A stretch of 64,000 nt of DNA from an archaeon (GTDB lineage: Archaea > Nanobdellota > Nanobdellia > Woesearchaeales > GW2011-AR15), in contig JAZDLQ010000017.1 in NCBI GenBank assembly GCA_043801855.1, positions 15,202 through 79,201 of the forward strand, given 5' to 3'. Under the pieces are notes generated by a model, which was not told where the DNA came from, did no database searches, and worked only from the letters and a program-made list of their open reading frames with translations. Shown here in pieces: positions 11,979 through 64,000 of the stretch (positions within the stretch are counted from its first letter, which is position 1; each line of letters opens with the position of its first letter). Both the position numbers and the translations under genes were made by a program.

Positions 11979-11992
11979 GAAAACAAACAAAT

Positions 11993-35450: not shown

Positions 35451-35463
35451 AGGATTTGCAAAA

Positions 35464-46745: not shown

Positions 46746-46762
46746 TATTATTCACCATTAGA

Positions 46763-47068: not shown

Positions 47069-47207
47069 TCATCTGCTCCTCTTTTAATATATTGGCTAAA
47101 ACCATAATCCTATCAACCCCTGAATTTGCTAAACGAGAACCCTATATAAATTTTTCTTTTGAGAAAAACAAAATAGTTTCATGCATTATATTTGTAACAA
47201 TAAAGTT

Positions 47208-47735
47208 TCAATCCATTGCAACAACGCTGTCTACAAACATATTTAAGTCTTTTACTAATTCTTCGCTATCCTCTTTTAATGCGACAAAAACAGATTTTTT
47301 TCCAAGCACCCGTATCTTGGTGATAAGGTTATGCGTAAACTTAATGACTGAATTTATATCCTGATAAACAATAAGCGTTGAAATTGTGTCAAAAATAGCG
47401 TTATCGCATCCCTTGTCAGACAAACCTTCTGAAAATGCAAGGCTGATATCTGTCAATGCAGTAGGTGATGAAATATATGTGCAGTTATTAGTATTAGTGG
47501 TAGACTGGACAGTATTAGTGATTGCATCAACAAAATAAAATTTGGAAGCTTCAATATTTCTCGACTTAAGCGCATTTACAATAGTGTTACTCGGTTTATT
47601 TAGAGTAACATAACAGACTTTATTTGATATGCTGCTTACAAGAGATAGAAGTTCCTGGGAATTTTTTATATAATTTCCCTTGCTCATTACAACTAGAGTT
47701 ACTTCACTATTAAGTAAATCCTCTTTTATTCCCAT
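47208..47735 (-). CDS. hypothetical protein, paralog of 42022-42615
   Basis: See 42022-42615. First gene of a minus-strand operon with the KaiC-like ATPase. Confidence 0.45.
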   Translation of the reverse strand: MGIKEDLLNSEVTLVVMSKGNYIKNSQELLSLVSSISNKVCYVTLNKPSNTIVNALKSRNIEASKFYFVDAITNTVQSTTNTNNCTYISSPTALTDISLAFSEGLSDKGCDNAIFDTISTLIVYQDINSVIKFTHNLITKIRVLGKKSVFVALKEDSEELVKDLNMFVDSVVAMD

Positions 47736-48038
47736 TATTTTTGGTAAATATAAACTCCTTTTTAACTCTTTTGTATAAATTACGGCAAATAAAAAGCTTT
47801 ATATATCATATAAATTATTATTTTGCTTGGGGGTTGATGCTAGTCAATTATCATTGTTATTTGCATAATTAAGCACTGTTGGTGACTTATTGATCGTCTA
47901 CTGCGCTTATCTTGAAACAGACAAATAGCTTTATTTTTGATTTTGCACCTTATGTTGCCATTCCTGCATGATAGAGCAAGATTCTTTTTGGTTTTAGAAA
48001 TATTTATAAATTATACTCTTTTTGATATATTATTATAT

Positions 48039-48143
48039 CTTAAAAGATATAACTGATTGAAAAAATAAAATTATAATAAAAACTTTTATATAGTATAATT
48101 ATAACTAAGAAAAGATATAACATTATACTATAAAAGATATAAT
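48039..48143. promoter_or_regulatory. operator-like perfect palindrome TTATATCTTAAAAGATATAA (48039-48058) plus two further AAGATATAA(C/T) half-sites (48111-48120, 48134-48143)
   Basis: 20-bp inverted repeat and repeated half-sites read directly in the sequence. A fourth half-site (AGAGATATAAC) lies at 48215-48225. Confidence 0.5.
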
Positions 48144-48195
48144 ACTCATCAGAGGGAAAACAATTAAAGAGGGAAAGAGGGGGCTGGAATCTGAG

Positions 48196-48771
48196 ATAGT
48201 TTCGCTTTTCAATAGAGATATAACTCTTTTAGCGAGCATCAATCAGCTTTCCAAAAAATTAAACAAGGCATACCCTTACATAAACAAAAAGGTAAGCGAG
48301 CTTATCCAGCAGGACGTATTTAAGAAAATTGATGTAGGAAGGTCTTATCTTTGCTCTGTAAACCTAAAAAATGAGCGCGCAGTTTTTCTTCTATCAATAA
48401 ATGAGATTGACAAAAAAGAGGCGTTCATAAAAAAGAACAAGGATATCAGGCTTGATGACATCCATTCATTAAAATCAAAATTCAAAGTCCATACTATCCT
48501 TTATTCATCAGGCAGCCTGATATTTGTCCTTGATTACATAAATGACAAAGATGCGATATTAAACCAGTATCCATCACTTAAAAAAATAAGCACCCTTTTT
48601 TTTGATAAGCAAAGTTTCCAGGAATATATCTTGTCAGATAGGGAAGTCATCGATAATCACATCCTTATCTACTCGTTTGAAAAATTCTTTGAACTGCTTT
48701 CTGAAATTGATGACCGGCTTATGCTTAAACATTCTTCAATATTTGGCAAAAACAGAGGCGGCCTGCAATGA
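48196..48771 (+). CDS. winged-helix-like putative regulator (~190 aa) translationally coupled to the giant gene; apparent ATA start
   Basis: Frame open 48121-48771 with no ATG/GTG/TTG until near the end. ..ITLLASINQLSKKLNKAYPYINKKVSELIQQDVFKK.. resembles a wHTH. Stop TGA overlaps ATG of the giant ORF (ATGA). AGAGGGGG upstream. Confidence 0.4.
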   Translation: MVSLFNRDITLLASINQLSKKLNKAYPYINKKVSELIQQDVFKKIDVGRSYLCSVNLKNERAVFLLSINEIDKKEAFIKKNKDIRLDDIHSLKSKFKVHTILYSSGSLIFVLDYINDKDAILNQYPSLKKISTLFFDKQSFQEYILSDREVIDNHILIYSFEKFFELLSEIDDRLMLKHSSIFGKNRGGLQ

Positions 48772-51700
48772 AAAAAAAGCTTAGCCTGATTTTGTGTGTA
48801 GTTGTATTTTCAGCGATTGCTTCTATTAGTTATGCAAATGCTGGTTATGTCTCTAAATATATTGCGCTTGAAAAAGAAACATATGCAGCAAAAGAAAGGA
48901 TAAATATCATCATTGATGCGCAGTCGCTTCCACAACTTAGCCTAAGGATATTAAGCGCTGAAAAAGAATATAGCTATTCTGGCCCTAAAAATACAGTATT
49001 TTTCTTGACGCAGTCAAATGGCCTGCATACAGTTGAGCTTTACAGCCAGAATATTTTAATCGATTCAGTTTCTTTTAATGTAAGCGATACCTTGCCAATA
49101 GTTTCACAACCTGAAATTAAAGAAGATGTATTACAAAAAAATTTTTCATTAATAAAAAACGATTCGGAAACAATTAATCAGCCTGTCCCTGCTCAGCATT
49201 CTAAAAGCCATTACCTTACTCTTGACAGAAAAGTCTATTATGAAAAAACCCCCGTAAGCATTAACCTATCAGCAGACCGATTCAAAAATGAGTCTGTTCT
49301 TGTAATAAAATATGCTGATAAGGAATATAAATTCATGAGTGAACTGACTGACACCATTAATTACATTCCATACACTCCTGGTAATTATTCGATCATACTA
49401 AAAGACCTAGTAAATAATATTATTGAATCAGTTGACTTTGAGGTATTAAAAAATGGAGCAGAAATTCCGCAAACTGATATCCATTTAAATATAACTGAGC
49501 AAAACAATCCAGGATTAAGCCAAGCTTTGCCTTCTATAAATAGTTCAATTCTAAATAGTTCTGTTCTAAATAATTCTAATGTCTCTTTTGGTAGTTTATT
49601 AAATGATACAATAAGCATATTTGAAAATAATATATCCGAATTTCAAAATATCACGAATAGCACTGATAATTATCATTTGATGCCATTAGATAATCTAACT
49701 AATCTAGTTGCAAAACCAAGGCAATTTATTAAAAACAGCAAAGGAGTATTAATGGATGCAACGTTTAATTTGACACAGGAAGCAGTAATTTTAGAAGCTT
49801 TTAATGGTTCTTTTGAAAATATTTCTTCTATTAAAAAATATAGTGCAACATTCAAGCCAAGATCAAAAAAAGATTTTGAACTAAAATTCAATGAATTTGC
49901 ATTCAATGATACAACTGAAATCAAATTTGAAGAGATTGATGTTTCCCAAGTAATTAGGCATAAAGAGCTTGCTGGGCTTGATGTTAAAGATGCATTTGCA
50001 ATAGACCCAACGCAGCTTGATTTTGCAAGCGCGCAGATAACAACGATTGCAAAAGGAACATCCCTTTACAAGTGCAAAGAATATGATTTTACAAGCCAGA
50101 TCTGCAATGGTTCCTGGATTAAAATAATGGATTTGATTCCAGGGCAGGAGTATTCTGTTGAGATATCACATGATGACCCTGCTTTTGCAGAAGTTGGCGT
50201 TGCCTCAATTAATTCACTCAAATCAATATACTATCCCGGGGAAACAGCAGAGCTTCTAATAGTTGTGCTTGACAGGTATGGATACTTGGCAGGAAACGCA
50301 AATGTTAGTGTAATTATTACAAGCCCAGCAAACTACAGCTATTTTTTATCAACAGATATAGGTTCGATTACAACTTTTGAAAGAGGGATTTACAGCGCCA
50401 ATTTTACAGGCACGATGGATGAAGGGTATTATACAATGCTTGTTTTTGCGTCAGGAATTAATGTAAACCAGACAATGAGCTCATATTTTATCGTAAAGAA
50501 TTATTATGAATTTGATATAATAAGAAATGCTCCAGTTACAATTGACCCATGGAAAAATTATTTTAATGTAAGTATTGAAATTATCTCAAACAATTATACT
50601 GGTACATTTAATTTTACAGAAAAAATTCCACTAAATTTCTCAATTATTGAAGCGCCTGGCGCAATATTAACTCAAGATGATGCCTTTAGGTATCTGACAT
50701 GGCGTGATGTGTATAATAGCACCAATTTTACATATTCTGCAAATGCGCCATTGATAACACCTGACCTTTATTCTATTGGTCCAGCGCAGATTTATTTTGA
50801 TAGCCAGATATTTGAAGAGGGGAGGCCTTGGTTTATTGCAGTAGATCCGCAGTTTGCTGCGTCAGCTAAATATGAAATATCACTAGCTTCCCTTGATAAC
50901 CAGACATTTGTAATCTCTTATATTGATGCAACATCATATGCAGCATGCTTTCAAGTGCTTGCAACAAATGGGACAGCTCTAGTTGGTGAGACTTGCCCAA
51001 ACGCAAATGTAGATGTTGATGGAAGAATTGATATTGCAGCAATTAATAGGACGCACTTTGCGATAAATATCTATGATGGGACAGCTGCTGATAATAATGA
51101 TGAGTACTATATATATAATAGGAATGGAAACCAGGAGCTTGGAAGGACAGAGTTTGATGCAAATGCTGGAACAAACGTCGATACAACAGTATGCTCACTG
51201 ACCGATAGGCTTGTTTTCAATTGGCAAGACCCAAATGATGGAAACGATGACCATGGTGAGATATGGAGTTATCGTGGAGTAAATCTTGTAGGCGAAACAG
51301 ATATTGATGCAAATAGTGCACCTGGTGCAACGCTGCAAAACTTAGCTGATTGCGCAGCAATTTCATCTACAAGATGGATTGCAGCAGAATATGATGATCA
51401 GGCAAATTCAGCTACTGTTGCAGTCTATTCAAATACATTTGCGGCAGCAATTGCGCTATTTAATGTTGATGCAAATGTTGGAGAGACAGGACAAGTTGCA
51501 GTAACTGCGTTAAAAAATAACAGATATGCATTCCTTTATTATGATAGTAACACTCAGGACATTTCTTTTGCGATAGGCGATATTACTGGTGATGTAAATA
51601 CCTACATCACTGGCCCAAAAGTGATTGAGAATAATCCTGGAACTTCAGCAAGGGTTGGTGTTACTGAAGTTCTTGTAAATGGTGTTAGCTATGTTGCAGG

Positions 51701-54700
51701 TACATGGTATGAGCAGGCAACAGGAACTATCAGAGCAGCTGTTTTTGACCAATATGGAAACTTAACTGTTCCAATATTTACTGTTGAAAATAACCCAAGT
51801 GCAACAAACCTTCTTTTGGGAATTACAGGAGGAGATTCGCTGTCAGGCACAAGCCTTTGCAACAGGAATTTTATAGTTGCATATACAGATAGCGCAAATA
51901 CAGCACAATATAAAAGATACAATTATCACGGAGAGCCTTGGGATGGCATATGTGTTACAGATTCTCAAGTGCCATCAATAAGTTTGAATGTGCCTTATAA
52001 CAACTCTGTTTATACTTATTCAAACATCACTTTTAATATTACAGCAATTGACAACCGTGACATCAGCCTTTGGTGTAATATTAGTGTTGATGGCGTATTA
52101 AGAGTTACAAATTACAGCGCAGCAAACAATTCATTTAATTTAACAACAATTAATGTTGCTGATGGATATCATTCATGGAACGCAAGCTGCGCTGATGATG
52201 ATAACAACCGCAACTTTACGCAGTTAAGCTATTTTTCTGTTGATGTTTTAGACAATAAGCAGGTTGATGATTCAGAAGGAGTTGATGTAGCAGGAATTGC
52301 TCTTGACAACACAACAATTGTAACAGCATGGATAGACACAAAAGATTCAAAAGCCTCTTTTGCAATCTGGAACACAAATGGCACCCTTATTAAAGAACAA
52401 ACTGTAGTTGATTCATTAGTTGACACAATTAGCAGGATTGCAATTACTCCTATAAATACAACTCATTTTATAATTTCTATAGTAGATGGCCCTGAAGATG
52501 ACCTTGACTTTTATATCTATGACAGGAATGCAACTCTTGTTTTAGGAAAAACAGAAGCAGACAATGATATCGGTGCATTTACAGATGTCAAAATATGCCA
52601 GCTTGGAACACAGTTTGTCTTAGTAGACGCAAATGACAATGACAATGATGCAGATTTTAGAGTTTATAACAATATTGGGACAATTGCTGTCACAGAATTA
52701 AATGTAGATGGTGGAATGGAGCCCGATGTATCGCTAAATAATCTTGTTGATTGCGCAGCTCTATCATCAACTAGATGGGTCTATTCATGGTTTGACGACG
52801 GTTCTGATGTTGTAAGTTATTCAGTTAGGGATAATGCAGGAACAAGTATAATTGGCCAGACTAATATTGACGCTGCATCTGGCGGCACAGCGCAGGTTGC
52901 ATCAGTTGGTTTACGTAACAACAGGTTTGCATATGCATTTTATGATGCAGCTGCAACTACTGTTTATTTAACGATCAGGGAATTAAGTGGTGCAGTTGTA
53001 AATACAATTCTTGCAAATACTGTACTTGATGCAACAGCAGGCGCATCAAGCAGGGTTGCGGTTACTGAGGTTGAATTTGGAGGCGTAAGCCATGTGGCAG
53101 TAGCGTGGCAGGATACAACAACAGGTGATATAAAAGCTGCTGTTTATGATTCCGATGGAGCAGTTGTTGCACCTCCATTTACAATCACTGCAAATGAAGA
53201 TGATGCATACAGCCTAATTTCATTAGTTGGAACAAATTCATTATTGAATTTTGGCTTATGCGACGGCAAATTTGCAATTATATATACAAATTCATCGAAT
53301 AATTTAATGTTTGATACTTTTTTTGATGTTGGCGTTCCATGGGATGGAAAATGCACTCCTGATGAGACGCCTCCTGCTATATCATTAATTGAGCCTATAG
53401 CATATGCAAATTATACCAATTCAAGCATATTGTTTAACTGGAGTGCAGCAGATAATATTGATCCAACAGTTCTTTGCAATCTTTATGTTGATGGAATAAG
53501 AAAAGCAGAGAATATTTCAACAGGAACTGATGATTTTGCTAATTATACATTAGGGATACCTGATGGAAACCACACATGGAATGTATCATGCTTTGATTCC
53601 AGGCTTAACTTAAATACAAGTGTGACAAGATACTTCACTGTTGATGTCCCTCAAGGTTATATTGATTCAAATGAGGCAGTTGATGTTGATATGGCAGCAA
53701 TTGATAATACAACATTAATTGTTGCATGGATTGATAATCAGGCAGGAAGGCCTGCTTCATTTGAAGTTTGGAGCACTAATGGTACATTATTAGTTGATCA
53801 GACAATAGTTGATGCAACTGGTGACAGGGATTCAAGAGTTGCAGTAAGCGCAATAAATAGGACGCATTTTGCTTTTGTTGTTGCAGATGGCCCTGATGAT
53901 GATATTGATATATATGTCTATCATAAAAATGGTTCAAGATCAATTGGGCCAACGCAGCTTAGCGCTGACACTGCAATTTTTACTGATACTTTTGCTTGCA
54001 GCCTTGGAAACAGGTTTGTTGCAGGATATGCAAATGATTTTGATAATGATGCTGATTTTCAGATTTACACAAATGCCGGTGCGCAGGTATTAATAGAAAC
54101 AAATGTTGATGGCGGCATGAATCCAGATGAACGGAGCCAAAACTTAATTGACTGCACAGTACTTTCTTCTACAAGATGGATATATTCATGGTTTGATGAC
54201 GGCTCAAATTTTGTAAGCATTGCAGCAAGAGATGAAGCAGGAACAAATGTTGTTGCCCAGACAAACATTGATGCAGCTGTTGGCGAGCAGGCGCAGGTTG
54301 CCTCAGCTAATCTGCTGAATAATAAGTTTGGGTTTTTATATTATGATTCAACAAATAACAACATAAATTACACTGTAAGGGAGTTATCTGGTGCAGCTTT
54401 CACAACAATTTTACCTAGCACTCTTCTTGATGATAATGCAGGAGCAGTTGCAGTTCTAAGCGCTGCTGAAATAAGTGATGGCATTGAAAGCTATAATGCG
54501 TTTGTATGGCAGGATAATGATGCAGGAAACATAAAAGCAGCAGTAATAGATTCTAATGGTACAATAATCACAGCGCCTTTTGTAATTAACAGCGCCCCTG
54601 ATGCATCATACCAGCTTATTGATGCAGTCGGTTATGATTCAGTTATAAATAATGGCTTATGCCCTGGAACATTTGCTGTTGCATATACAAATTCATCTGC

Positions 54701-57700: not shown

Positions 57701-60700
57701 TAGCTTAACATCAATTGACTTGTTTGGAAACACAAATTCAACTGCAGAGCGCGGCTATTCAGTTTATCAGCAGGGTATCTTGGATGATTATGGGATGATT
57801 GATTTGTCCCTTGCATCACTTGATAATACAACTGTAGTTCTTGCGTGGATTGATGCACAGAATTATGATGCATCATTTCAGGTAAGAAGCACAAATGGGA
57901 CAATTATTGCAGGAGAAAATGATATTGATATTAATGGAAATGCAACAAGCAGGATATCAGTAACTCAACTTAACAGGACAACATTTGCAATAGGAATAGT
58001 TGATGATCCTGAAGATGATGTTGATTATTTCATATTCAATAGAGATGGCACAAGAGTTTTATCGCGAACACAGGCAGATAATGATGTTGGTGCAAATACA
58101 GATATCTCTCTTTGCACGTTTGGCGCAAGATTTGCAATAGCAAATGCAAACGATCAGGACAATGATGCAGATTATAGGATTTATTCAAGAGAAGGCGCTT
58201 TGCAGGTATCTGAATTAAATGTTGATGGTGGAATGGAGCCAGATGTGCAGTTGCATAACCTTGTCTCCTGTGCTGGTTTAAGCGCAACACGATATGCTTA
58301 TTCATGGTTTGATGATGGCAGTAATGTAGTTAGCGTTTCAATTATCAATGAGACAGGTGGTGCTGTAATAGCACAGACTAATATTGACGGCGCATCAGGT
58401 GAAGCAGCTCAGGTTGCAATAGCAGGCATGCGAAATAATATGTTTGGCTATATATTTTATGATGCAGCAGCAATAACCGTATATGGTACAATTAGGCAGG
58501 TAAATGGGGTTGCGCTGACATCAATTCTTGCAAATACTGTACTAGATGCAACACTTGGCGCATGGAGCCGGGTTTCTTCTGCTGAAATTGAATCATATGG
58601 AAAAAGCTATATTGCATTTGGATGGCAGGATACAACATCAGGCGATATTAAAGTAACTGTTTATAATGCATCAGGAAGTGTTATTACATCTCCTTTTGTT
58701 GTTGCACAAAACATTAGCGCAAGTAACGTCTTATTTGAAATCGCTGGAACAAATTCACTATTAGGCTTTGGCCTTTGCGATGAAACATTTGCAATAGCTT
58801 ATACTAATTCATCAGGAACAGCAGTGATTGACACCTACGATATATATGGAAACAAATGGAACGGGATATGCGATAGAAATGCGCCAATTGCATCATTTGT
58901 AAATCCAACTCCAGCAGATAGGGCTCCAATTACACAGGATTTTTTTACAATAAATGTAAGCATCAATGAATCCTCGCTTAGCAAAATAAATTATGCATTT
59001 GACTTATCCAGTTACTTAATTTATGATTCAAATACAAAACTTTTGCTTAATTTTGATAATCTTACTTCAATTGGAGAAAACAGTTCAATAGTTGCTGATA
59101 TAAGCAGTTATGGAAATATTGGAAATGTAACTGGCGCATTATTAAATACAAGCCTCTGTAAAACAGGCTTTGGAAAATGCTACAGCTTTGATGGCAATTT
59201 GGATTCAATTGAATTTCAGGATAGCGATTCACTATCGCTTAGCGTTAATTTTACTGTTTCAATGTGGCTATATGACACTTCAGTGCAGAATGATAATATG
59301 CTTGAGAAAGGCGACTCATATTTTATAAAAGATGACTGGACTGCAGACGGATGCACAACAGCTGGAAGATTCCAGTTCCTAGTTAGGCAGAGCAATACAA
59401 ATTATTGTGTAGAAGATTTAGCAGCACACAATCAAAACCAATGGTACAATGTAGTTGGTGTCAAAAATGATTCTCATATTTCAATATATGTAAATGGCGT
59501 TTATAGATCAAGTAGCGCACTTGCAGGAAACATCGATGATGATAACCTTCCGCTAGTTATTGGTGCAGATGATTCAGCGTCAGCAGATTTTATTGGTTTA
59601 GTTGATAAAGTTGCAATTTTTGGAAAAGCACTAAGCAGCGCAGAAGTAGCGCTTCTTTATAACATAAATATATACAAAACAGATGCAACAGGCTATGCTT
59701 TAGAAATAAACCAGACAGCCCTAACTCTAGGCATGCATAACTATACAGCATCAGCTATGGACACTTCATTAAATACGCGCCAGCTTGAAACCAGATTAAT
59801 TTCATATTATTCACTTAGTTACCTTGATAATAATCCTTTCCTTGACATTGAACTTGCCGCTCTTGACAACACAACTGTAGTAATTGCATATATTGATTCT
59901 TACACTAATGAATCATCATTTTATATAATGGACACAAATGGAACTGTTTTGGTTGGTGAAGTAGATATAGATGTTGATGGTAATTTTGAATCAAGAATAT
60001 CAGTTGCGCCAATTAGCAGGAATAGTTTTGTGATTGCAATAATTGATGGGCCTGAAGACGATGTTGATTTTTTTATATATAATAGGACCGGCGGGATTGT
60101 GCGCGATAGGACTCAAGTGTCTGCTAATATTGCGTCAGCAGTTGGAGATTCTCATAGTGATATTGGCCTATGCCAACTAGGAGATAGGTTTATTATCACT
60201 TATGCAAAAGATATTGGCGCAGGCTCAGACCAGGATGCTGAATTTCAGGTTTGGACAAACGCAGGAGTCTTAGTTACAGGAGAAACAGCAGTTGATGATG
60301 TGATGAATGCAGAGCATTATAATTATAATTATGTTGACTGCGCAGCAACATCAGCCTCCAGATGGATCTATACATGGTTTGATGATGGAGATAATGATAT
60401 CTCAGTATCTCTTAGAAACCAGGTCGGAACTGCGGTTTTAGGTGCAGGTGACCTTGACACTGATGTTGGCGAAACAGCTGCTGTTGCTGCAACGGGTCTT
60501 CGAAACAATCGCTTTGCAACAGTATTTTTTGATTCAACTGACAATGACATCTCTTTTGAAATAAGGGATGTAACTGGTGACTCTTCTTATGCAATGGTAA
60601 TTGATAATTATGACATAGATGCAGATCCTGGAACAGAAAGCCGTGTTGCTGCTGCAGAAATTGAATATAACGGGCAAAGCTATTTTGTAGCAGCATGGCA

Positions 60701-63700
60701 AAAAACAGGCAATGACTCAATTTATGCAGGAGTTTATAATTCAACTGGGTCTTCGATGGCAACTCCATTTATTGTTGAGGGCAATTCATCCCAGAACTAC
60801 TTATTATTAGATGCAGTTGGAACATATTCAGTTCTTGGGTATGGCCTTTGCAATACAACTTTTGCAATCGCATACACAAATTCAAGCGGCTTGACAAAAC
60901 TTAAAACATACATGTATGATGGTACACCTTGGAATGGCATATGTGATTTTCAAGGCCCAAATATAACTCTTGACCGGCCTGTTAACAGCACAACAATTCT
61001 AACCAGAAGCTATGTAATTAATGCAAGTGTTAGGGACCAATCAAAAATTGCAAATGTTACTTTCTTATACAGGGAAAACCTAACAGCTGACTGGAATGTT
61101 GCATGTGTTGATTCTGATATATTAAATAATGTTTATGCAGAATGCAATTGGAACCTAAACGGCCTTCCTGAAACATATGAATACCAAGTAAGGGCATATG
61201 CAACTGATATTGCAGGAAACATTGGCGTTAATGATACACATGGAAATATTTCAGTAATACTAGGGCTTCCTGTTATCCAAAGAATACAATGCCTTGAAAA
61301 TGCAGTATGGCAAGATTGCTCACTTCTTGCATATCAGGATGTGATTAAAGGTGTCAGAGTCAACTGCACTAGTGAAGAAGGAACAATTATTAATGCAACT
61401 TTTAATTTGACAAATGTTCCTGACTCATCGACATATTTCTTTAATATCTCAACTGATTTTGAAAATGGCTACTGGGTGCATTATAAAAATATGACAATTA
61501 ATGATTCAGGATTATTCTATATGTATGCAAAATGTATAGATAATTCTTCAGCATATAAGCAGGGATATTCAACATGGCTTGTTCCGTGGGGAAACTTAAC
61601 ATCAACTCTTATCTCACCTAATGCAAATACTGATGTTGTTCAGAACCTGACATTCTTATTTACCAGTAGTGTTGCCTGCAGCGGCGGAGAATGCGGAAAT
61701 ATAAATTCAACACTTGACCCTGATGTAAACTGGTGGAACCGCTCGTGGAATTACAGAAAAGAAATCTCAATTATAAATAACGCAAGCAGCAATGCAACCA
61801 ATATTCCAGTATATATAAGAGTAAGCGCCGAATCTGCAATGAGGTATGATTACAATGACATAAGGTTTTTTGGGGCAGGATGTCTTGAGCAGGGACAGCT
61901 ATTAAATTATGATCTTGAATACAATAGTTCAGGCTTCGCTGTATTCTGGGTAAGAGTTCCTGCCATTCTTCCTGGAAATAATACAATCTGTATGTATTAT
62001 GGAAATCCAAATGCAACATTGCAGGCTAATCCCCAAGTAGTGTGGAATATTTCTGAATATGGAATAGTCTATCACATGAATTTGACAGGCGATGATTCAA
62101 CATTAAATAACAGAGACAGGATATCAAATTACGGCGCCCCATCTGCTGATGACGGGACAATTGGCTATGGGATTGGCTTTGATGGAAATGACGGCTGGAA
62201 CCAGATAAATCTTGCATACTGGGAAATTGCTTGGAATAACAGGACACATGAGGTATTTTTTACAACAAGTTCAGATGTTAATTCAAGGCAGACAGTTTTT
62301 GCAGAAGGAGATACTGCAAACGGCGCCATGATGTATATTTTAAACGGCAATCTTTATTCAAGATGGTGGAGCGAGACAAACGGACTTGGAGGAGATGTGT
62401 TTTCTTATCCTATAACAGAAGGCACCCAGTATCATGCTGTTATGACTTATACAAACCCTGGAAACCACTCTTTTTATCTGAATGGCAGGCTTGTTATGTC
62501 AAACACCTCAACTGCAACAATTGCAGCGCATGGAGGTAATGGCGGTATTGGCTATACTGGTTCAAGTTCAAAAGATTATCATGACTTGTTAGGCAGCCAG
62601 GGAAATTATTTCAGGGGAACCATTCATGAGTTTAGGGTTATTAACTGGAATCACAATGTAACTTGGTTCAATACCTCTTATTTAACAACATTTGATAGCA
62701 GCAGATATGTATTTTATGGAGCAGAACAAATTCAAACAAAAGGAACAATTCCAATGGCTTATGGCTCAGTCCCATTCCATTCAATTACACAAAATCCACT
62801 CTCATTAGATTACCTTGCATGCCTTACTGACATGAGACCAGGATCATCTTGCACTACAGACTGGACAGTTAATGCAACAGGGGATATTGATACAACTTGG
62901 GAATTTTATGTAATAGATGAGCCTGACACTTACTCTGGCCAGTATGCACCAGTTTATTCCAGCAGGATAAATATTACAATAGTTGATGTAATAAAGCCTA
63001 AAATTTCTGGACTGCAATGCCTTGAGAATAACTCTATTTGGACATCATGCTCAAATATACAATACATGGATAATGTGACCGCTGTTAGGGCAACATGCAG
63101 GTATGCTCTTTCTAATCCTGTTATGAATATGACTTTTAGAATGACTAATATTGAGGATAATACAACCTTTTTTGATTCTTATACAACAGATAACACATCA
63201 GGCTACTGGACACTTTATCTTCCAGGATATTACATACTTGATTCAGGAGCATTTAATATATACACTAGTTGCAGTGCTGATTCATATGGAGCAACAGGAT
63301 ATTACAATGAAACATGGATTGTTCCATTTGGAAGGCTTTATGGCACATGGTATAATCCAACAGGAAACATAAATGTTACACAAAATAGTTTCTCTCCTTT
63401 TTCAGTCAATGTTGCATGCCTTGGTGGAGAATGCGGAAATGTCTCAGCAGCTCTTGATCCTCAGTCAGAGTATCCTATTGTTTATATGAATTTTGAGAAT
63501 CCTACTGATTTTGTTACAAGTGGAGGAACCTGCGGAACAGGGGCATTATGGTCTTGTGCAACAAGTGCTCCATGGGATTATTATGATAATTGCGTTGCAC
63601 CAAGCAACACTTATGGCATTTGCGCATCTCCTGATGCAAGCAGGGTTGCCGGCGGAAATGGCCTTGAATGCAGAGGCTGTGATTCTTTTGCAGGCAGCGG

Positions 63701-64000
63701 TGCAGGATTATTTATTAACCTAAATGGCACACTTTGCGGCGGATATGCATGCCAATCGTTAAATATCTCTTATTATCAGGTTGTATCAAATATGGATATT
63801 GCAACTGAGGGAAGCGCTGTTTTTGTAAGCGACCTTGACGGAACATGGCGAACAGTATCGACTTGCTTAGACAATGATGCATACTGCGATTGCGAGTCGA
63901 TATTTGGCTGCTCGCTTGCAACAATGGGAAGATATGCGCAAAAAATAAATGTTGACATATGTCAGGTATCAGGGATTAACTGTTCAGAGCCATTGAACAT
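48768..64000 (+). CDS. giant secreted/surface protein, >5070 aa, 3' end beyond the window: signal peptide, Ig-like N-terminal region, at least six ~330-aa 7-bladed beta-propeller-like modules, three LamG/ConA-like domains, Cys-rich C-terminal modules
   Basis: Frame 0 is open from ATG 48768 to the window end, checked codon by codon at 48768, 50400, 55020, 60000 and 63960. Signal peptide MKKKLSLILCVVVFSAIASISYANA. LamG-like signature FDG.NDYI...WYH..G..N....IYVDG...IGADD..FIGLIDEVRIYN. Extreme N-x-S/T density. Confidence 0.85.
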   Translation, partial: MKKKLSLILCVVVFSAIASISYANAGYVSKYIALEKETYAAKERINIIIDAQSLPQLSLRILSAEKEYSYSGPKNTVFFLTQSNGLHTVELYSQNILIDSVSFNVSDTLPIVSQPEIKEDVLQKNFSLIKNDSETINQPVPAQHSKSHYLTLDRKVYYEKTPVSINLSADRFKNESVLVIKYADKEYKFMSELTDTINYIPYTPGNYSIILKDLVNNIIESVDFEVLKNGAEIPQTDIHLNITEQNNPGLSQALPSINSSILNSSVLNNSNVSFGSLLNDTISIFENNISEFQNITNSTDNYHLMPLDNLTNLVAKPRQFIKNSKGVLMDATFNLTQEAVILEAFNGSFENISSIKKYSATFKPRSKKDFELKFNEFAFNDTTEIKFEEIDVSQVIRHKELAGLDVKDAFAIDPTQLDFASAQITTIAKGTSLYKCKEYDFTSQICNGSWIKIMDLIPGQEYSVEISHDDPAFAEVGVASINSLKSIYYPGETAELLIVVLDRYGYLAGNANVSVIITSPANYSYFLSTDIGSITTFERGIYSANFTGTMDEGYYTMLVFASGINVNQTMSSYFIVKNYYEFDIIRNAPVTIDPWKNYFNVSIEIISNNYTGTFNFTEKIPLNFSIIEAPGAILTQDDAFRYLTWRDVYNSTNFTYSANAPLITPDLYSIGPAQIYFDSQIFEEGRPWFIAVDPQFAASAKYEISLASLDNQTFVISYIDATSYAACFQVLATNGTALVGETCPNANVDVDGRIDIAAINRTHFAINIYDGTAADNNDEYYIYNRNGNQELGRTEFDANAGTNVDTTVCSLTDRLVFNWQDPNDGNDDHGEIWSYRGVNLVGETDIDANSAPGATLQNLADCAAISSTRWIAAEYDDQANSATVAVYSNTFAAAIALFNVDANVGETGQVAVTALKNNRYAFLYYDSNTQDISFAIGDITGDVNTYITGPKVIENNPGTSARVGVTEVLVNGVSYVAGTWYEQATGTIRAAVFDQYGNLTVPIFTVENNPSATNLLLGITGGDSLSGTSLCNRNFIVAYTDSANTAQYKRYNYHGEPWDGICVTDSQVPSISLNVPYNNSVYTYSNITFNITAIDNRDISLWCNISVDGVLRVTNYSAANNSFNLTTINVADGYHSWNASCADDDNNRNFTQLSYFSVDVLDNKQVDDSEGVDVAGIALDNTTIVTAWIDTKDSKASFAIWNTNGTLIKEQTVVDSLVDTISRIAITPINTTHFIISIVDGPEDDLDFYIYDRNATLVLGKTEADNDIGAFTDVKICQLGTQFVLVDANDNDNDADFRVYNNIGTIAVTELNVDGGMEPDVSLNNLVDCAALSSTRWVYSWFDDGSDVVSYSVRDNAGTSIIGQTNIDAASGGTAQVASVGLRNNRFAYAFYDAAATTVYLTIRELSGAVVNTILANTVLDATAGASSRVAVTEVEFGGVSHVAVAWQDTTTGDIKAAVYDSDGAVVAPPFTITANEDDAYSLISLVGTNSLLNFGLCDGKFAIIYTNSSNNLMFDTFFDVGVPWDGKCTPDETPPAISLIEPIAYANYTNSSILFNWSAADNIDPTVLCNLYVDGIRKAENISTGTDDFANYTLGIPDGNHTWNVSCFDSRLNLNTSVTRYFTVDVPQGYIDSNEAVDVDMAAIDNTTLIVAWIDNQAGRPASFEVWSTNGTLLVDQTIVDATGDRDSRVAVSAINRTHFAFVVADGPDDDIDIYVYHKNGSRSIGPTQLSADTAIFTDTFACSLGNRFVAGYANDFDNDADFQIYTNAGAQVLIETNVDGGMNPDERSQNLIDCTVLSSTRWIYSWFDDGSNFVSIAARDEAGTNVVAQTNIDAAVGEQAQVASANLLNNKFGFLYYDSTNNNINYTVRELSGAAFTTILPSTLLDDNAGAVAVLSAAEISDGIESYNAFVWQDNDAGNIKAAVIDSNGTIITAPFVINSAPDASYQLIDAVGYDSVINNGLCPGTFAVAYTNSSAEFTFDLFYFNGERWDGVCRYTPPSIAFSYPTPGDGVQTSNDSVQLKVSINESNMKSLTFTWDGTGYTHFDDSLVLMYNLDNVSAIGETGTRVVDLSVHGNNGTVTNAVANASCQFNGCYYFDGNNDYIQTADAPELGQRVNFTVSMWVYDTDPRVDRQLEKGDSYFFLDDINAGGCANPGRWQFLVKQSNVNFCVEDTVAHEQSRWYHILGMKNDTHISIYVDGVYKASTTLSGLIDDDDLALMIGADDSASNDFIGLIDEVRIYNNTFNSSEIRQLYYSSLNKYASDKWYLTVNEGDLAFDGNTYKAQVYDNYGSTRSTGQRTLNYYLYSLIDTDPLVDIDTIAIDSTKTVLAWIDGGSFEADFEIWDTNGTILVFSSTIDATGNAESRIALAAINTTTYVIGISDGPDTDDDIDFYIYDISGYLLSGPTEVDDNIGDAGSDESDVALCQLGDRFAIPYVDDTDVTDNSASFWMYYNNGSSIPVSYGHLDDVIAPGRTRQNLIDCAALSSSRWASVWFDDNDNDATMRLVDSDGNFLTIETDLDTDIGEIGQVASAGLPDGRFAVAYYDSTALTIAISVQDTSTDAFVPVLAPTVIDASAGADSRVSVAEVESSLGGSNFVVAWRDTNAGDIKAAVYDDDGLQVTAPFTITTLPHATSLILDVVGTNSLLGFGLCSDNFGISYANSTGSSVFEIFNIDGSHWNGICEKSPPLIEYTGQTPADLSFSTVTSFEMNVSINESNLRDVTLSMDRVDYSIYDSTLALMFNFDNISSIGDNATRALDVSRYGKNGTINGPLSWTSSGKYGGAYSFSDNADYISVPNDATLDLQSAFTLSAWIRPDNSGNSDYQSIITKETASDNRNYWLTLWTDGTLHLRFSSSSFASDCDAAGATDLRDGTWHHVAGIYNGTHCQLFLDGATHATDTVAASPQGIGSSLYIGYAQGTAGRGFDGLIDEVRIFNTAYNYSDVRQLYSSSLNKYDTDKWLFYSKEENLSTEQHHYSLTSIDLFGNTNSTAERGYSVYQQGILDDYGMIDLSLASLDNTTVVLAWIDAQNYDASFQVRSTNGTIIAGENDIDINGNATSRISVTQLNRTTFAIGIVDDPEDDVDYFIFNRDGTRVLSRTQADNDVGANTDISLCTFGARFAIANANDQDNDADYRIYSREGALQVSELNVDGGMEPDVQLHNLVSCAGLSATRYAYSWFDDGSNVVSVSIINETGGAVIAQTNIDGASGEAAQVAIAGMRNNMFGYIFYDAAAITVYGTIRQVNGVALTSILANTVLDATLGAWSRVSSAEIESYGKSYIAFGWQDTTSGDIKVTVYNASGSVITSPFVVAQNISASNVLFEIAGTNSLLGFGLCDETFAIAYTNSSGTAVIDTYDIYGNKWNGICDRNAPIASFVNPTPADRAPITQDFFTINVSINESSLSKINYAFDLSSYLIYDSNTKLLLNFDNLTSIGENSSIVADISSYGNIGNVTGALLNTSLCKTGFGKCYSFDGNLDSIEFQDSDSLSLSVNFTVSMWLYDTSVQNDNMLEKGDSYFIKDDWTADGCTTAGRFQFLVRQSNTNYCVEDLAAHNQNQWYNVVGVKNDSHISIYVNGVYRSSSALAGNIDDDNLPLVIGADDSASADFIGLVDKVAIFGKALSSAEVALLYNINIYKTDATGYALEINQTALTLGMHNYTASAMDTSLNTRQLETRLISYYSLSYLDNNPFLDIELAALDNTTVVIAYIDSYTNESSFYIMDTNGTVLVGEVDIDVDGNFESRISVAPISRNSFVIAIIDGPEDDVDFFIYNRTGGIVRDRTQVSANIASAVGDSHSDIGLCQLGDRFIITYAKDIGAGSDQDAEFQVWTNAGVLVTGETAVDDVMNAEHYNYNYVDCAATSASRWIYTWFDDGDNDISVSLRNQVGTAVLGAGDLDTDVGETAAVAATGLRNNRFATVFFDSTDNDISFEIRDVTGDSSYAMVIDNYDIDADPGTESRVAAAEIEYNGQSYFVAAWQKTGNDSIYAGVYNSTGSSMATPFIVEGNSSQNYLLLDAVGTYSVLGYGLCNTTFAIAYTNSSGLTKLKTYMYDGTPWNGICDFQGPNITLDRPVNSTTILTRSYVINASVRDQSKIANVTFLYRENLTADWNVACVDSDILNNVYAECNWNLNGLPETYEYQVRAYATDIAGNIGVNDTHGNISVILGLPVIQRIQCLENAVWQDCSLLAYQDVIKGVRVNCTSEEGTIINATFNLTNVPDSSTYFFNISTDFENGYWVHYKNMTINDSGLFYMYAKCIDNSSAYKQGYSTWLVPWGNLTSTLISPNANTDVVQNLTFLFTSSVACSGGECGNINSTLDPDVNWWNRSWNYRKEISIINNASSNATNIPVYIRVSAESAMRYDYNDIRFFGAGCLEQGQLLNYDLEYNSSGFAVFWVRVPAILPGNNTICMYYGNPNATLQANPQVVWNISEYGIVYHMNLTGDDSTLNNRDRISNYGAPSADDGTIGYGIGFDGNDGWNQINLAYWEIAWNNRTHEVFFTTSSDVNSRQTVFAEGDTANGAMMYILNGNLYSRWWSETNGLGGDVFSYPITEGTQYHAVMTYTNPGNHSFYLNGRLVMSNTSTATIAAHGGNGGIGYTGSSSKDYHDLLGSQGNYFRGTIHEFRVINWNHNVTWFNTSYLTTFDSSRYVFYGAEQIQTKGTIPMAYGSVPFHSITQNPLSLDYLACLTDMRPGSSCTTDWTVNATGDIDTTWEFYVIDEPDTYSGQYAPVYSSRINITIVDVIKPKISGLQCLENNSIWTSCSNIQYMDNVTAVRATCRYALSNPVMNMTFRMTNIEDNTTFFDSYTTDNTSGYWTLYLPGYYILDSGAFNIYTSCSADSYGATGYYNETWIVPFGRLYGTWYNPTGNINVTQNSFSPFSVNVACLGGECGNVSAALDPQSEYPIVYMNFENPTDFVTSGGTCGTGALWSCATSAPWDYYDNCVAPSNTYGICASPDASRVAGGNGLECRGCDSFAGSGAGLFINLNGTLCGGYACQSLNISYYQVVSNMDIATEGSAVFVSDLDGTWRTVSTCLDNDAYCDCESIFGCSLATMGRYAQKINVDICQVSGINCSEPLN
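50880..60950 (+). repeat. tandem coding repeats: six beta-propeller modules (periods ~1400, 1400, 2035, 2085, 2045 nt), the last three carrying a LamG insert; ~75% nucleotide identity between modules
   Basis: Module starts near 50890, 52295, 53690, 55725, 57810 and 59855, recognised by the ..AALDNTT(V/I)V.AWID.. blade and recurring blades ..CAALSSTRW.YSWFDDGS.., ..AAVYD..G....PF. Shared 30-mer ATTCTTGCAAATACTGTACTTGATGCAACA. Confidence 0.75.

What the first reader, a model, noticed from the sequence alone, without database searches (positions are those of the whole stretch)
48768..64000. Giant (>5070 aa) open reading frame missed by the ORF track
Frame 0 on the plus strand is uninterrupted from ATG 48768 to the end of the window. 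It is absent from the track only because it has no stop inside the window. The product is a signal-peptide-bearing protein built from six repeated 7-bladed beta-propeller-like modules, three LamG/ConA-like domains and Cys-rich C-terminal modules (CLGGECGN). N-x-S/T sequons occur every few residues, consistent with a heavily N-glycosylated archaeal surface protein. Its start overlaps the stop of an upstream wHTH-like gene (ATGA). Proteins of this size are rare in archaea and are typical of DPANN/episymbiont surface adhesins (established knowledge applied by inference).
Basis: seen in the sequence. Interest (0 to 1): 0.75.

Follow-up and report, generated by a model that had tools for sequence, protein, structure and literature searches.

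The report
Giant archaeal surface protein gene
The window ends inside a real gene for a giant (over 5,077 residues, probably about 8,000) secreted, sugar-coated surface protein of a Woesearchaeota-like DPANN archaeon, built from six beta-propellers and lectin-like domains; it belongs to an already sequenced but unstudied family and is always paired with a small DNA-binding regulator gene just upstream.

Summary
From ATG 48768 to the window end there are 5,077 sense codons and no stop. The only hydrophobic segment is an N-terminal Sec-type signal.

What the ORF contains:
- There are four Laminin_G_3 domains, not three, plus one DUF2341 domain.
- Two Cys modules carry C(S/L)GGECGN, followed by a Cys-rich tail.
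- N-x-S/T sequons are about twice expectation (156 vs 74, z = 10.9). They cluster in the Ig-like, N-terminal and C-terminal parts, not in the propellers.

The propeller module matches no Pfam or NCBIfam model. A profile search still finds 511 protein clusters. All that carry taxon labels are Woesearchaeota, Nanoarchaeia or "archaeon" MAGs, plus one Micrarchaeota locus. The closest protein (7,039 aa, 44.5% identical, collinear) continues about 3,060 aa past the point where the window ends.

The upstream "wHTH-like" gene is real. It is a conserved roughly 190-aa winged-helix protein that sits directly upstream of a large secreted-protein gene in all 18 informative loci. It is preceded by two conserved palindromes, TTATAY-N8-RTATAA, flanking a TATA box.

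Best reading: a regulated, N-glycosylated, multivalent cell-surface adhesin. It is a new member of a known kind, of moderate interest.

The parts
48033..48052 (+). Distal palindromic site TTATATCTTAAAAGATATAA (TTATAY-N8-RTATAA), a candidate operator
   Evidence: There are only two exact matches in the 64-kb window, both in this region, against 0.18 expected. The same palindrome lies within 220 nt upstream of the small gene's homologue in 27 of 30 loci.
48085..48092 (+). TTTATATA, a TATA-box-like element between the two palindromes
   Evidence: TTTATAWA sits between the two palindromes in most related loci, for example sites at -141 and -67 with the box at -101. Its promoter function is inferred.
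48123..48142 (+). Proximal palindromic site TTATACTATAAAAGATATAA, a candidate operator between the TATA box and the start codon
   Evidence: The position fits a repressor-type operator. Binding by the wHTH protein is inferred.
48163..48771 (+). Small gene of about 202 codons: N-terminal winged helix plus a C-terminal alpha/beta domain. The inferred start is ATT 48163, after GAGGG. Its stop TGA 48769-48771 overlaps the giant gene's ATG (ATGA).
   Evidence: - The frame is open from 48121-48771 with no canonical start before 48631.
- 18 homologues of 155-206 aa were found, with no Pfam domain.
- GAGGG-N4-6-ATT is conserved at the aligned start in the window, L008 and L004.
48768..64000 (+). Giant ORF, 5' part only: 5,077 codons, 554 kDa so far, pI 4.1. 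It is cut by the window end.
   Evidence: It is collinear with P0003 (7,039 aa) at 44.5% identity over aa 1639-5076.
48768..48842 (+). Sec-type signal peptide (aa 1-25, KKK + hydrophobic core + ANA|G)
   Evidence: This is the only segment with Kyte-Doolittle hydropathy above 1.8 in the whole protein. The cleavage site was judged by inspection.
48843..50834 (+). N-terminal region (aa 26-689), sequon-rich and probably Ig-like beta-sandwiches. It is the part most widely shared with the giant genes found downstream of the small gene's homologues.
   Evidence: - 24-47% identity to the N-termini of downstream giants in at least 15 loci.
- 31 sequons against 9 expected.
- Only weak MG2/Invasin_D3 hits.
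50835..52007 (+). Propeller module 1 (aa 690-1080)
   Evidence: hmmsearch score 562 bits.
52008..52238 (+). Ig-like linker 1 (aa 1081-1157): 2 Cys, 8 sequons
   Evidence: It resembles the Ig-like repeats of P0001.
52239..53408 (+). Propeller module 2 (aa 1158-1547), the module modelled by AF2
   Evidence: - AF2: pLDDT 83, pTM 0.87, seven blades.
53409..53639 (+). Ig-like linker 2 (aa 1548-1624)
53640..54803 (+). Propeller module 3 (aa 1625-2012)
   Evidence: It groups with module 1 of P0003.
54804..55664 (+). Insert 1 (aa 2013-2299) with Laminin_G_3 at aa 2100-2252
   Evidence: Pfam PF13385, E = 2e-23.
55665..56855 (+). Propeller module 4 (aa 2300-2696)
56856..57749 (+). Insert 2 (aa 2697-2994) with Laminin_G_3 at aa 2791-2946
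   Evidence: Pfam PF13385 and PF02210. It also gives the only PDB sequence hit, 4qvs_A, an S-layer domain protein, at E = 2.7e-7.
57750..58919 (+). Propeller module 5 (aa 2995-3384)
   Evidence: Its closest paralogue is module 2, at 57% identity.
58920..59795 (+). Insert 3 (aa 3385-3676) with the third Laminin_G_3
   Evidence: It is 49-52% identical to insert 1. It is one of the three PF13385 stretches in the second half of the protein.
59796..60977 (+). Propeller module 6 (aa 3677-4070)
   Evidence: It groups with module 4 of P0003.
60978..61757 (+). Ig-like domain plus Cys module A (aa 4071-4330; 8 Cys; CSGGECGN at aa 4304)
61848..62042 (+). DUF2341 domain (aa 4361-4425)
   Evidence: Pfam PF10102, E = 2.5e-10.
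62232..62645 (+). Fourth, divergent Laminin_G_3 (aa 4489-4626)
   Evidence: Pfam PF13385, E = 2.3e-6, 28.3 bits against a cutoff of 27.6.
62997..63461 (+). Cys module B (aa 4744-4898; CLGGECGN at aa 4884), 41% identical to module A
   Evidence: D13.
63465..63998 (+). Cys-rich region (aa 4900-5077, 14 Cys), truncated by the window end
   Evidence: It is 52% identical to P0003 and is repeated there.

Best explanation
The ORF is the 5' two-thirds of a gene for a giant, Sec-exported, heavily N-glycosylated, very acidic cell-surface protein of a Woesearchaeota-like (DPANN) archaeon.

**Shown**
- It is a genuine, conserved coding sequence.
- It has an N-terminal signal peptide and no other hydrophobic segment.
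- Its modular body has this order: a conserved N-terminal region of about 690 aa; six seven-bladed beta-propellers separated by Ig-like spacers or LamG-containing inserts; then Cys modules, DUF2341, a fourth LamG and a Cys-rich region.
- It is the second gene of a conserved two-gene unit.
  - The first gene, whose stop overlaps the giant gene's ATG, encodes a roughly 200-aa winged-helix protein.
  - Two conserved palindromes flank a TATA-like box upstream of that first gene.

**Inferred**
- After export, the protein forms an extended, disulfide-stabilised, glycan-coated fibre. Its many propeller and LamG modules bind carbohydrate or glycoprotein ligands multivalently on a partner (host) cell or substrate. 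In other words, it acts as an adhesin and host-recognition organelle.
- Module content differs between lineages at the same locus: the positional orthologue in L008 lacks propellers in its first 3,320 aa. This may tune specificity.
- The winged-helix protein binds the palindromes and controls transcription of the operon, including its own gene. Its apparent ATT start keeps its own level low.
- The missing C-terminal third (about 3,000 aa in the closest relative) probably contains more Cys modules, about 20 Ig-like domains, a CARDB domain and a conserved terminal domain of about 190 aa that ends ...ELR, with no membrane anchor.
For: - **Coding reality:**
  - Stop-free frame and codon-position bias.
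  - 44.5% collinear identity to the 7,039-aa P0003.
  - 511 profile hits for the propeller module.
- **Export:** a single N-terminal hydrophobic segment.
- **Surface glycoprotein:**
  - Sequon excess at z = 10.9. Other signal-peptide proteins in the window share the excess; cytoplasmic ones do not.
  - Each propeller has 4 invariant Cys.
- **Propeller fold:**
  - AF2 model.
- **Lectin-like domains:** four Laminin_G_3 and one DUF2341.
- **Taxonomy:**
- **Conserved gene pair:**
  - In 18 of 18 informative loci a signal-peptide ORF of at least 789 aa begins within -40 to +73 nt of the small gene's stop.
  - Twelve of these run more than 2,650 aa to the end of the available DNA. Complete ones reach 8,788 aa.
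- **wHTH fold:**
- **Operator footprint:** 27 of 30 loci carry a site, against a background of 18 sites in 180 kb. The window has only two exact sites, both in this upstream region.
- **Literature:**
  - Giant DPANN surface proteins and LamG/PKD proteins are proposed to mediate host attachment (PMC10266531; PMC7443923).
  - DUF2341 proteins are proposed as adhesins (PMC4858521).
Against: - No experiment or ligand is known for any member of this family.
- The mode of attachment to the cell is unknown. The relatives have no C-terminal transmembrane or sortase-type signal, and the window lacks the C-terminus.
- DNA binding by the small protein to the palindromes is inferred only from co-conservation.
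- Whether this organism is an episymbiont at all is unknown.
Confidence: 0.62

Rival explanations
1. It is a structural envelope (S-layer-like or sheath) protein. It builds or decorates the cell wall and is not a specific adhesin.
For: - The only PDB sequence hit is an 'S-layer domain-containing protein', 4qvs_A, through its LamG domain.
- The protein is acidic, glycosylated and carries a signal peptide, as archaeal S-layer proteins typically do (established knowledge).
Against: - S-layer proteins are abundant lattice formers, usually 400-1,500 aa. They rarely exceed 5,000 aa or show this much module turnover between close relatives.
- A dedicated regulator with operators suggests conditional rather than constitutive expression.
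Confidence: 0.12
2. It is a tip or accessory adhesin of a type IV pilus-like or archaellum-like filament. Makarova et al. proposed this role for large archaeal DUF2341 proteins.
For: - A DUF2341 domain is present.
- In L004 the small-gene/giant-gene pair lies directly after an archaellum-like operon: FlaC, archaeal flagellin, KaiC-type ATPase and T2SSE ATPase.
- KaiC-like and DUF7504 genes lie next to the pair in the window and in L008. KaiC ATPases are associated with archaeal T4P loci (PMC4858521).
Against: - The N-terminus looks like a class I Sec signal (KKK, hydrophobic core, ANA|G), not a class III pilin signal.
- No pilin, PilB/T2SSE ATPase or TadC gene was found among the window ORFs scanned.
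- The KaiC-like genes are on the opposite strand.
- The archaellum-like neighbourhood was seen in only one of the loci examined.
Confidence: 0.1
3. It is a giant extracellular polysaccharide-processing enzyme or scaffold. The propellers would be catalytic (glycoside hydrolase or lyase-like) and the LamG domains would act as carbohydrate-binding modules, serving nutrient acquisition rather than adhesion.
For: - LamG/ConA-like folds are common in glycanases (established knowledge).
Against: - No Pfam or NCBIfam catalytic family matches any part of the protein, even at E <= 10 for the propellers.
- The invariant residues are mainly structural: Cys, Trp, Gly and loop Asp.
- The lectin propellers score higher than the hydrolases.
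Confidence: 0.08
4. It is an assembly artefact or a decaying pseudogene: a chimeric or mis-expanded repeat array that is not expressed as one protein.
For: - The sequence is a metagenome-type contig whose source is absent from the searched collections.
- The gene is repetitive.
- The upstream gene lacks a canonical start codon.
Against: - There are 5,077 stop-free codons.
- The repeats share only 60-88% DNA identity, which is too divergent to mis-assemble.
- The module order is collinear with an independent genome at 44.5% identity.
- Modules 3 and 6 group with P0003 modules 1 and 4 rather than with the window's own paralogues.
- The ATT start context is conserved in three genomes.
Confidence: 0.03

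Closest known systems
P0003 = MFH1174614.1, 'MAG: DUF2341 domain-containing protein [archaeon]', 7,039 aa, contig JAZDHK010000029.1. Also other uncharacterised giant Woesearchaeota proteins: MCF7865839.1 (7,158 aa), MDD9953415.1 (5,392 aa) and MBN1793027.1 (6,018 aa).
   Same: - 44.5% identity, collinear over window aa 1639-5076.
- The same propeller, LamG, Cys-module and DUF2341 building blocks.
- The same upstream winged-helix gene, also overlapping the giant gene's start.
   Different: - P0003 has four propellers, not six.
- Its genome has 51% GC, against 35% for the window.
- Its small gene starts with GTG, not ATT.
- No TTATAY-N8-RTATAA site (at most one mismatch) was found upstream of the small gene in that locus, although two GATATAA half-sites are present.
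- None of these proteins has been studied experimentally.
Giant surface ('SPEARE') proteins of Nanohaloarchaeota, e.g. SVXNc_0300 (9,409 aa) and BNXNv_0298 (8,880 aa) (PMC10266531)
   Same: - DPANN origin and a size of several thousand residues.
- An N-terminal Sec signal.
- Ig-like domains plus WD40-like beta-propellers in a huge acidic ectodomain.
- A proposed role in host contact.
   Different: - No sequence relationship was detected in any search here.
- The nanohaloarchaeal proteins carry transmembrane segments and a cytoplasmic VirB4/TraG-like ATPase domain. Neither was seen in the window part. In the relatives checked, the last 60 residues carry no hydrophobic segment, and Pfam scans of P0003 aa 3975-5629 and of its last 330 aa (with the last 330 aa of P0005) found only Ig-like and CARDB domains.
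- That paper does not report a paired winged-helix gene.
PLL-family seven-bladed beta-propeller lectins (PLL of Photorhabdus, BP39L, CV39L) and fungal AAL/AFL fucose lectins
   Same: - They are extracellular, and their function relies on repeated blades.
   Different: - Only 9-12% sequence identity.
- The lectins are small stand-alone proteins.
- Their sugar-binding residues were not tested here.
- The archaeal module has 4 invariant Cys and Asp-rich loops of its own.
Large bacterial multi-domain adhesins, e.g. SiiE (53 BIg domains) and the 7,651-aa Mobiluncus adhesin
   Same: They are giant, repetitive surface fibres made of beta-sandwich modules (abstracts).
   Different: They use a different secretion and anchoring system (T1SS or sortase), have no propeller arrays, and are not homologous.
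MarR/ArsR/PadR-type winged-helix regulators (for the upstream gene)
   Same: - The gene sits next to palindromic sites.
   Different: - No Pfam family matches it.
- It has an extra C-terminal alpha/beta domain of about 100 aa, whose fold was not assigned.
- It is always coupled to a giant secreted-protein gene.

Membership tests
Woesearchaeota giant propeller/LamG surface-protein family (un-named; defined here by the 388-position propeller profile A1) | One or more copies of the roughly 385-aa propeller module | tested here: met
   The ORF has six copies scoring 562-615 bits. The profile finds 511 proteins at E <= 1e-3 and 175 at E <= 1e-30.
Woesearchaeota giant propeller/LamG surface-protein family (un-named; defined here by the 388-position propeller profile A1) | N-terminal signal peptide and extracellular domain content (Ig-like, LamG, DUF2341, CARDB) | tested here: met
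   CARDB lies beyond the window and was seen only in relatives.
Woesearchaeota giant propeller/LamG surface-protein family (un-named; defined here by the 388-position propeller profile A1) | Conserved C-terminal domain of about 190 aa ending ...FYxELR | not testable with these tools
   The window ends before the C-terminus. The domain is present in 14 of the 151 listed representatives, including P0003. The source contig was not found in any collection.
Small-wHTH / giant-secreted-protein gene pair | A homologue of the roughly 190-aa winged-helix protein lies immediately upstream, on the same strand, overlapping or within 80 nt | tested here: met
   The window has the ATGA overlap at 48768-48771. 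The arrangement holds in 18 of 18 informative loci.
Small-wHTH / giant-secreted-protein gene pair | TTATAY-N8-RTATAA palindromes flanking a TATA-like box upstream of the small gene | tested here: met
   Window sites are at 48033 and 48123. 27 of 30 loci carry at least one site.
Laminin_G_3 / ConA-like lectin superfamily (PF13385) | Score above the Pfam gathering threshold | tested here: met
   The half-protein scans score 83.6 and 180.2 bits against a cutoff of 27.6. The fourth copy is marginal at 28.3 bits.
DUF2341 (PF10102) | Score above the Pfam gathering threshold | tested here: met
   41.1 bits against a cutoff of 23.4, at aa 4361-4425.
Nanohaloarchaeal SPEARE-type giant proteins | C-terminal transmembrane region plus a VirB4/TraG-like ATPase domain, with sequence homology | tested here: not met
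   - No ATPase or transmembrane segment occurs in the 5,077 aa of the window.
- In relatives, the last 60 residues of the giants checked carry no hydrophobic segment. Pfam scans of P0003 aa 3975-5629 and of the last 330 aa of P0003 and P0005 found only Ig-like and CARDB domains.
- The true C-terminus of the window protein is unseen.
PLL-type propeller lectins | Sequence family membership and conserved sugar-binding residues between the blades | tested here: not met
   - No sequence hit to any PDB chain and no Pfam hit.
- The resemblance is at the fold level only, with 9-10% identity.
Archaeal type IV pilin-like / class III signal peptide proteins | A class III signal: a short charged N-terminus, a [KR]G-type cleavage motif, then a hydrophobic helix | tested here: not met
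   The N-terminus MKKKLSLILCVVVFSAIASISYANA|G fits a class I Sec signal by inspection. No FlaFind or SignalP tool was available.

The most novel reading that the evidence does not exclude
The giant gene and its overlapping winged-helix partner may form a previously undescribed, Woesearchaeota-wide 'attachment operon'.
- **Regulation:** a dedicated autoregulator binds two TTATAY-N8-RTATAA operators that bracket the TATA box, switching a single enormous host-recognition fibre on and off. In this lineage the regulator is translated from a rare ATT start.
- **New lectin family:** the propeller module, which has no curated domain model, would be a new archaeal lectin family.
- **Host range:** the copy number of this module (0 to 6 at the same locus in related genomes) would set host or substrate specificity.
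Probability: 0.3. Interest if true: 0.6.

Novelty: new member of a known kind. Interest (0 to 1): 0.4.

Why it matters
DPANN archaea are thought to live attached to other cells, yet the molecules that mediate contact are almost entirely unknown outside a few cultivated nanohaloarchaea and Nanoarchaeota.

This locus offers a concrete, testable candidate for Woesearchaeota:
- A protein of more than 550 kDa, probably about 900 kDa when complete.
- Defined modules that can be expressed separately and tested for ligand binding.
- A conserved regulator-and-operator pair that could reveal when such fibres are made.

It also flags a widespread propeller domain (511 clusters) that no curated domain library yet models. 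The gene itself is not surprising: giant surface proteins are a recognised hallmark of DPANN genomes.

Tried and rejected
1. **Word-index homology search with module 2.** It returned only one irrelevant hit to the Ig-like linker. This would have wrongly suggested an orphan domain. The exhaustive profile search found 511 relatives, so the first result was a sensitivity artefact.
2. **Exact-protein look-ups and a DNA scan for the source contig.** Look-ups of two window proteins and an exact 49-nt scan of metagenome contigs with sequence from the window's end found nothing. The 3' end of the gene could not be recovered.
3. **The search for related loci with the six-module alignment.** It failed for lack of a conserved 7-10 column stretch. 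A three-module alignment worked but found only 3 genome loci.
4. **Curated family searches for the propeller, the N-terminal region and the small protein.** Pfam and NCBIfam gave no significant family. The weak hits (CPDase, NUMOD1, MG2, TafC below cutoff) were rejected as noise or generic folds.
5. **SPEARE-like secretion conduit.** Rejected because no ATPase or transmembrane domain was found here, at the C-termini of the relatives checked, or in the parts of P0003 scanned with Pfam.
6. **Assembly collapse.** Rejected because the DNA repeats are only 60-88% identical.
7. **Antisense ORFs inside the gene (56441-56941, 57577-57903, 60412-60768).** Treated as chance ORFs and not pursued.
8. **Disulfide geometry and sugar-site residues.** These could not be checked because model coordinates are not exposed to scripts.
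Full report
**1. Observation**

- Translating window 48768-63998 on the + strand gives 5,077 codons without a stop. The frame is open from 48729, and ATG 48768 is the first possible start.
- The ORF tool omits it only because it runs off the window.
- Codon-position GC is 45.6/41.7/25.7%, typical of coding DNA in a 35% GC genome.
- The product so far is 554 kDa with pI 4.1 (614 Asp+Glu against 250 Lys+Arg).
- It has a single hydrophobic segment, aa 3-25 (MKKKLSLILCVVVFSAIASISYANA|G). By inspection this is a class I Sec signal peptide.

**2. Anatomy**

Six modules of about 390 aa:
- Self-comparison shows them at aa 690-1080, 1158-1547, 1625-2012, 2300-2696, 2995-3384 and 3677-4070. They are 37-57% identical to one another.
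- Modules 1-3 are separated by roughly 78-aa Ig-like linkers.
- Modules 3-6 are separated by roughly 290-aa inserts, each containing a Laminin_G_3 domain.

Downstream of module 6:
- An Ig-like domain plus Cys module (CSGGECGN).
- DUF2341 at aa 4361-4425.
- A fourth, marginal Laminin_G_3 at aa 4489-4626.
- A second Cys module (CLGGECGN), 41% identical to the first.
- A region with 14 Cys in 177 residues, cut by the window end.

Propeller fold:
- AlphaFold2 of module 2, using the six modules as its alignment, gives pLDDT 83 and pTM 0.87. The model has 27 strands arranged as seven four-stranded blades. An N-terminal strand appears to complete the last blade.
- Foldseek ranks the fungal fucose lectins AOL, AFL and AAL first.
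- Each module has four invariant Cys, which probably form two disulfides. This is inferred; the geometry could not be checked.

Sequons:
- There are 156 N-x-S/T sequons against 74.3 ± 7.5 in shuffles (z = 10.9).
- The excess lies in the N-terminal region (31 vs 9), the Ig-like linkers (8 vs about 2.4 each) and the C-terminal modules. The propellers are near expectation.
- The other signal-peptide proteins in the window show the same roughly two-fold excess, and the cytoplasmic ones do not.

Assembly:
- DNA repeats within the ORF are 60-88% identical with no long exact copies, so assembly collapse or expansion is unlikely.

**3. Relatives**

The propeller family:
- A word-indexed search with one module found nothing relevant.
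- An exhaustive HMM search with the six-module profile found 511 representative proteins at E <= 1e-3 and 175 at E <= 1e-30. Many are giant, up to 7,158 aa.
- No Pfam or NCBIfam model matches the module, even at E <= 10. No PDB sequence matches it either.
- Among the 151 listed proteins plus the window protein:
  - 101 have one near-complete module.
  - 13 have two.
  - One has four.
  - Two have six (the window protein and P0002).
- Every source name available is Woesearchaeota, Nanoarchaeia or "archaeon". One genome locus is Micrarchaeota.

The closest protein:
- P0003 (MFH1174614.1, 7,039 aa) is collinear with window aa 1639-5076 at 44.5% identity. It continues for about 3,060 residues beyond the point where the window ends.
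- That extension holds more Cys modules, about 20 sequon-rich Ig-like domains, a CARDB domain and a roughly 190-aa terminal domain. The terminal domain ends ...FFVELR and has no hydrophobic anchor. The same ending recurs in 14 of the 151 representatives.
- By inference, the complete window protein is about 8,000 aa.

Module history:
- In a tree of modules, window modules 3 and 6 pair with P0003 modules 1 and 4. Modules 2 and 5 are each other's closest relatives.
- The array is therefore old and maintained, not a recent or artefactual expansion.

**4. The upstream gene and the operon**

The small gene:
- The frame ending at TGA 48769-48771 (the ATGA overlap) is open for 216 codons, but it has no ATG/GTG/TTG before 48631.
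- It is nevertheless a real gene. A profile search found 18 homologues of 155-206 aa, up to 51% identical, all Woesearchaeota, Nanoarchaeota or archaeon, with no Pfam domain.
- AF2 (pLDDT 89.5) predicts an N-terminal H-H-H-beta-beta winged helix, a long helix and a C-terminal alpha/beta domain.
- At the aligned N-terminus, the window and its two closest relatives (L008 and L004) all read GAGGG-N4-6-ATT. More distant homologues have ATG or GTG there. ATT 48163 is therefore the likely start; this is inferred.

The conserved gene pair:
- In seven database loci and 31 metagenome loci, the close subfamily of this gene is always followed by a signal-peptide ORF that begins -40 to +73 nt from its stop.
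- All 18 loci with at least 2 kb of downstream DNA have such an ORF of at least 789 aa. Twelve run more than 2,650 aa to the end of the available DNA. Complete genes of 3,155, 4,877, 5,808, 7,039 and 8,788 aa are recorded.
- These downstream giants share the window protein's N-terminal roughly 690 aa at 24-47% identity. Only the window and L001 carry propellers.
- A distant subfamily of the small gene (L037-L043) is followed instead by a 191-aa cytoplasmic ORF.

The upstream palindromes:
- Upstream of the small gene lies a conserved 20-bp palindrome, TTATAY-N8-RTATAA.
- In the window it occurs at 48033-48052 and 48123-48142, flanking TTTATATA at 48085. These are the only exact matches in 64 kb, against 0.18 expected.
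- In 27 of 30 loci at least one site lies within 220 nt upstream. Typically two sites sit 74 bp apart around a TTTATAWA box.
- The background is 18 sites in 180 kb of the same loci.

**5. Genomic setting**

- The window carries a 98-nt tRNA-Arg(TCT), consistent with an archaeal intron.
- Window 37257-64000 is syntenic, at 28-68% protein identity, with Woesearchaeota MAG contig JAFGRO010000026.1 (L008). The shared order is:
  - a histidine kinase;
  - two ORFs;
  - a 370-aa ORF, a KaiC-like ATPase, a 101-aa ORF and a DUF7504/KaiC-like ORF, all on the minus strand;
  - the small gene;
  - the giant gene.
- The positional orthologue in L008 (5,808 aa) has the N-terminal region, DUF2341-LamG and the Cys modules. 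It has no propeller in its first 3,320 aa, so the propeller/LamG block is lineage-variable.
- In L004 the pair follows an archaellum-like operon.

**6. Interpretation**

*Best-supported reading (confidence about 0.6).* This is a regulated operon encoding a giant, exported, N-glycosylated, disulfide-stabilised surface fibre. Its many propeller and LamG modules bind glycan or glycoprotein ligands multivalently on a partner cell or surface.

*Status of the evidence*
- **Shown:** coding status, export signal, fold assignments, family membership, taxonomy, the conserved gene pair and the conserved palindromes.
- **Inferred:** ligand binding, the adhesin role, operator binding by the winged-helix protein, the ATT start, and the content of the missing C-terminus.

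*Rivals*
- S-layer or structural protein (0.12).
- Pilus- or archaellum-associated DUF2341 tip adhesin (0.10; Makarova et al., PMC4858521).
- Polysaccharide-processing enzyme (0.08).
- Assembly artefact or pseudogene (0.03).

**7. Comparison with known systems and novelty**

- Giant DPANN surface proteins with a Sec signal, Ig-like domains and WD40-like propellers are already described in nanohaloarchaea (8,880 and 9,409 aa; PMC10266531). LamG/PKD surface proteins are routinely proposed as DPANN host-interaction factors (PMC7443923).
- The window protein is not homologous to those nanohaloarchaeal giants, and it lacks their ATPase and transmembrane part.
- It is a diverged member (at most 44.5% identity) of a family already deposited as "DUF2341 domain-containing", "Ig-like domain-containing" or "hypothetical" proteins.
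- Verdict: a new member of a known kind.
- What I did not find described in the papers I read:
  - the strict pairing with a winged-helix gene;
  - the dual palindromic operators;
  - the un-modelled propeller domain family.
- Interest: 0.4.

Noticed in passing
window 48121-48771; L008 9860-9900; L004 9960-10000: The small winged-helix gene has no ATG/GTG/TTG near its conserved N-terminus. The window and its two closest relatives all read GAGGG-N4-6-ATT at the aligned start, which suggests a conserved non-canonical ATT initiation codon. Gene callers truncated or shifted the start in the relatives: 155 aa was called in L008, and a TTG start was called in L004.
   Followed up: partly
window 48033-48052 and 48123-48142, with TTTATATA at 48085: Two exact copies of the palindrome TTATAY-N8-RTATAA flank a TATA-like box. 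These are the only exact copies in the window. The same layout is conserved upstream of the small gene's homologues in 27 of 30 loci, usually with 74-bp spacing.
   Followed up: yes
window 16391-19723 and 19725-23555 (+): Two adjacent large genes.
- The first encodes a 1,110-aa signal-peptide protein with PKD, MopE-like metal-binding and CarboxypepD_reg domains.
- The second encodes a 1,276-aa protein that combines an N-terminal hydrophobic segment, a CarboxypepD_reg domain and a HerA/DUF87-type ATPase domain.
The surface domain plus secretion-type ATPase combination loosely recalls the nanohaloarchaeal giant proteins, but split over two genes.
   Followed up: no
window 30046-30915, 30969-35450, 35431-36804 (+): A KaiC-like ATPase gene is followed by a 1,493-aa signal-peptide protein with 54 sequons against 23 expected. 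A 457-aa signal-peptide protein then overlaps it. This may be a second surface-protein cluster, and it has almost no Pfam matches.
   Followed up: no
window 46035-47735 (-): A KaiC-like ATPase (236 aa), a 101-aa ORF and a DUF7504/KaiC-like ORF (175 aa) are transcribed divergently from the small-gene/giant-gene pair. The same trio sits in the same place in Woesearchaeota contig JAFGRO010000026.1 (L008), at 56-68% identity. This suggests a functional link with the giant-gene operon.
   Followed up: partly
window 11992-12089 (+): tRNA-Arg(TCT) is 98 nt long, about 22 nt longer than a standard tRNA. This is consistent with an archaeal tRNA intron.
   Followed up: no
P0003, P0005, P0008, P0046 and 10 other relatives (C-termini); not in the window: Many full-length family members end in a conserved domain of about 190 aa after a CARDB domain. 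The consensus reads ...TGILWDxSDGGxxYxGxQDxVFV...YDYEIxIPxxLRxY...VxFYxELR-COOH. It has no hydrophobic anchor and no Pfam match. It could be the cell-attachment domain or the distal tip.
   Followed up: partly
L037-L043 (metagenome loci): A distant subfamily of the small winged-helix protein (29-38% identity) is followed by a conserved 191-aa non-secreted ORF with a 4-nt overlap (MKAKDILL...), not by a giant gene.
   Followed up: no
L004 1-9400 (Woesearchaeota WJJD01000058.1): In this relative, the small-gene/giant-gene pair (the giant is 8,788 aa) lies directly downstream of an archaellum-like operon: FlaC, archaeal flagellin, KaiC-type ATPase, T2SSE ATPase and a 565-aa protein.
   Followed up: no
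window 56441-56941, 57577-57903, 60412-60768 (-): Antisense ORFs of 108-166 aa lie inside the giant gene. They are most likely chance ORFs in the stop-poor antisense frame of a long gene.
   Followed up: no
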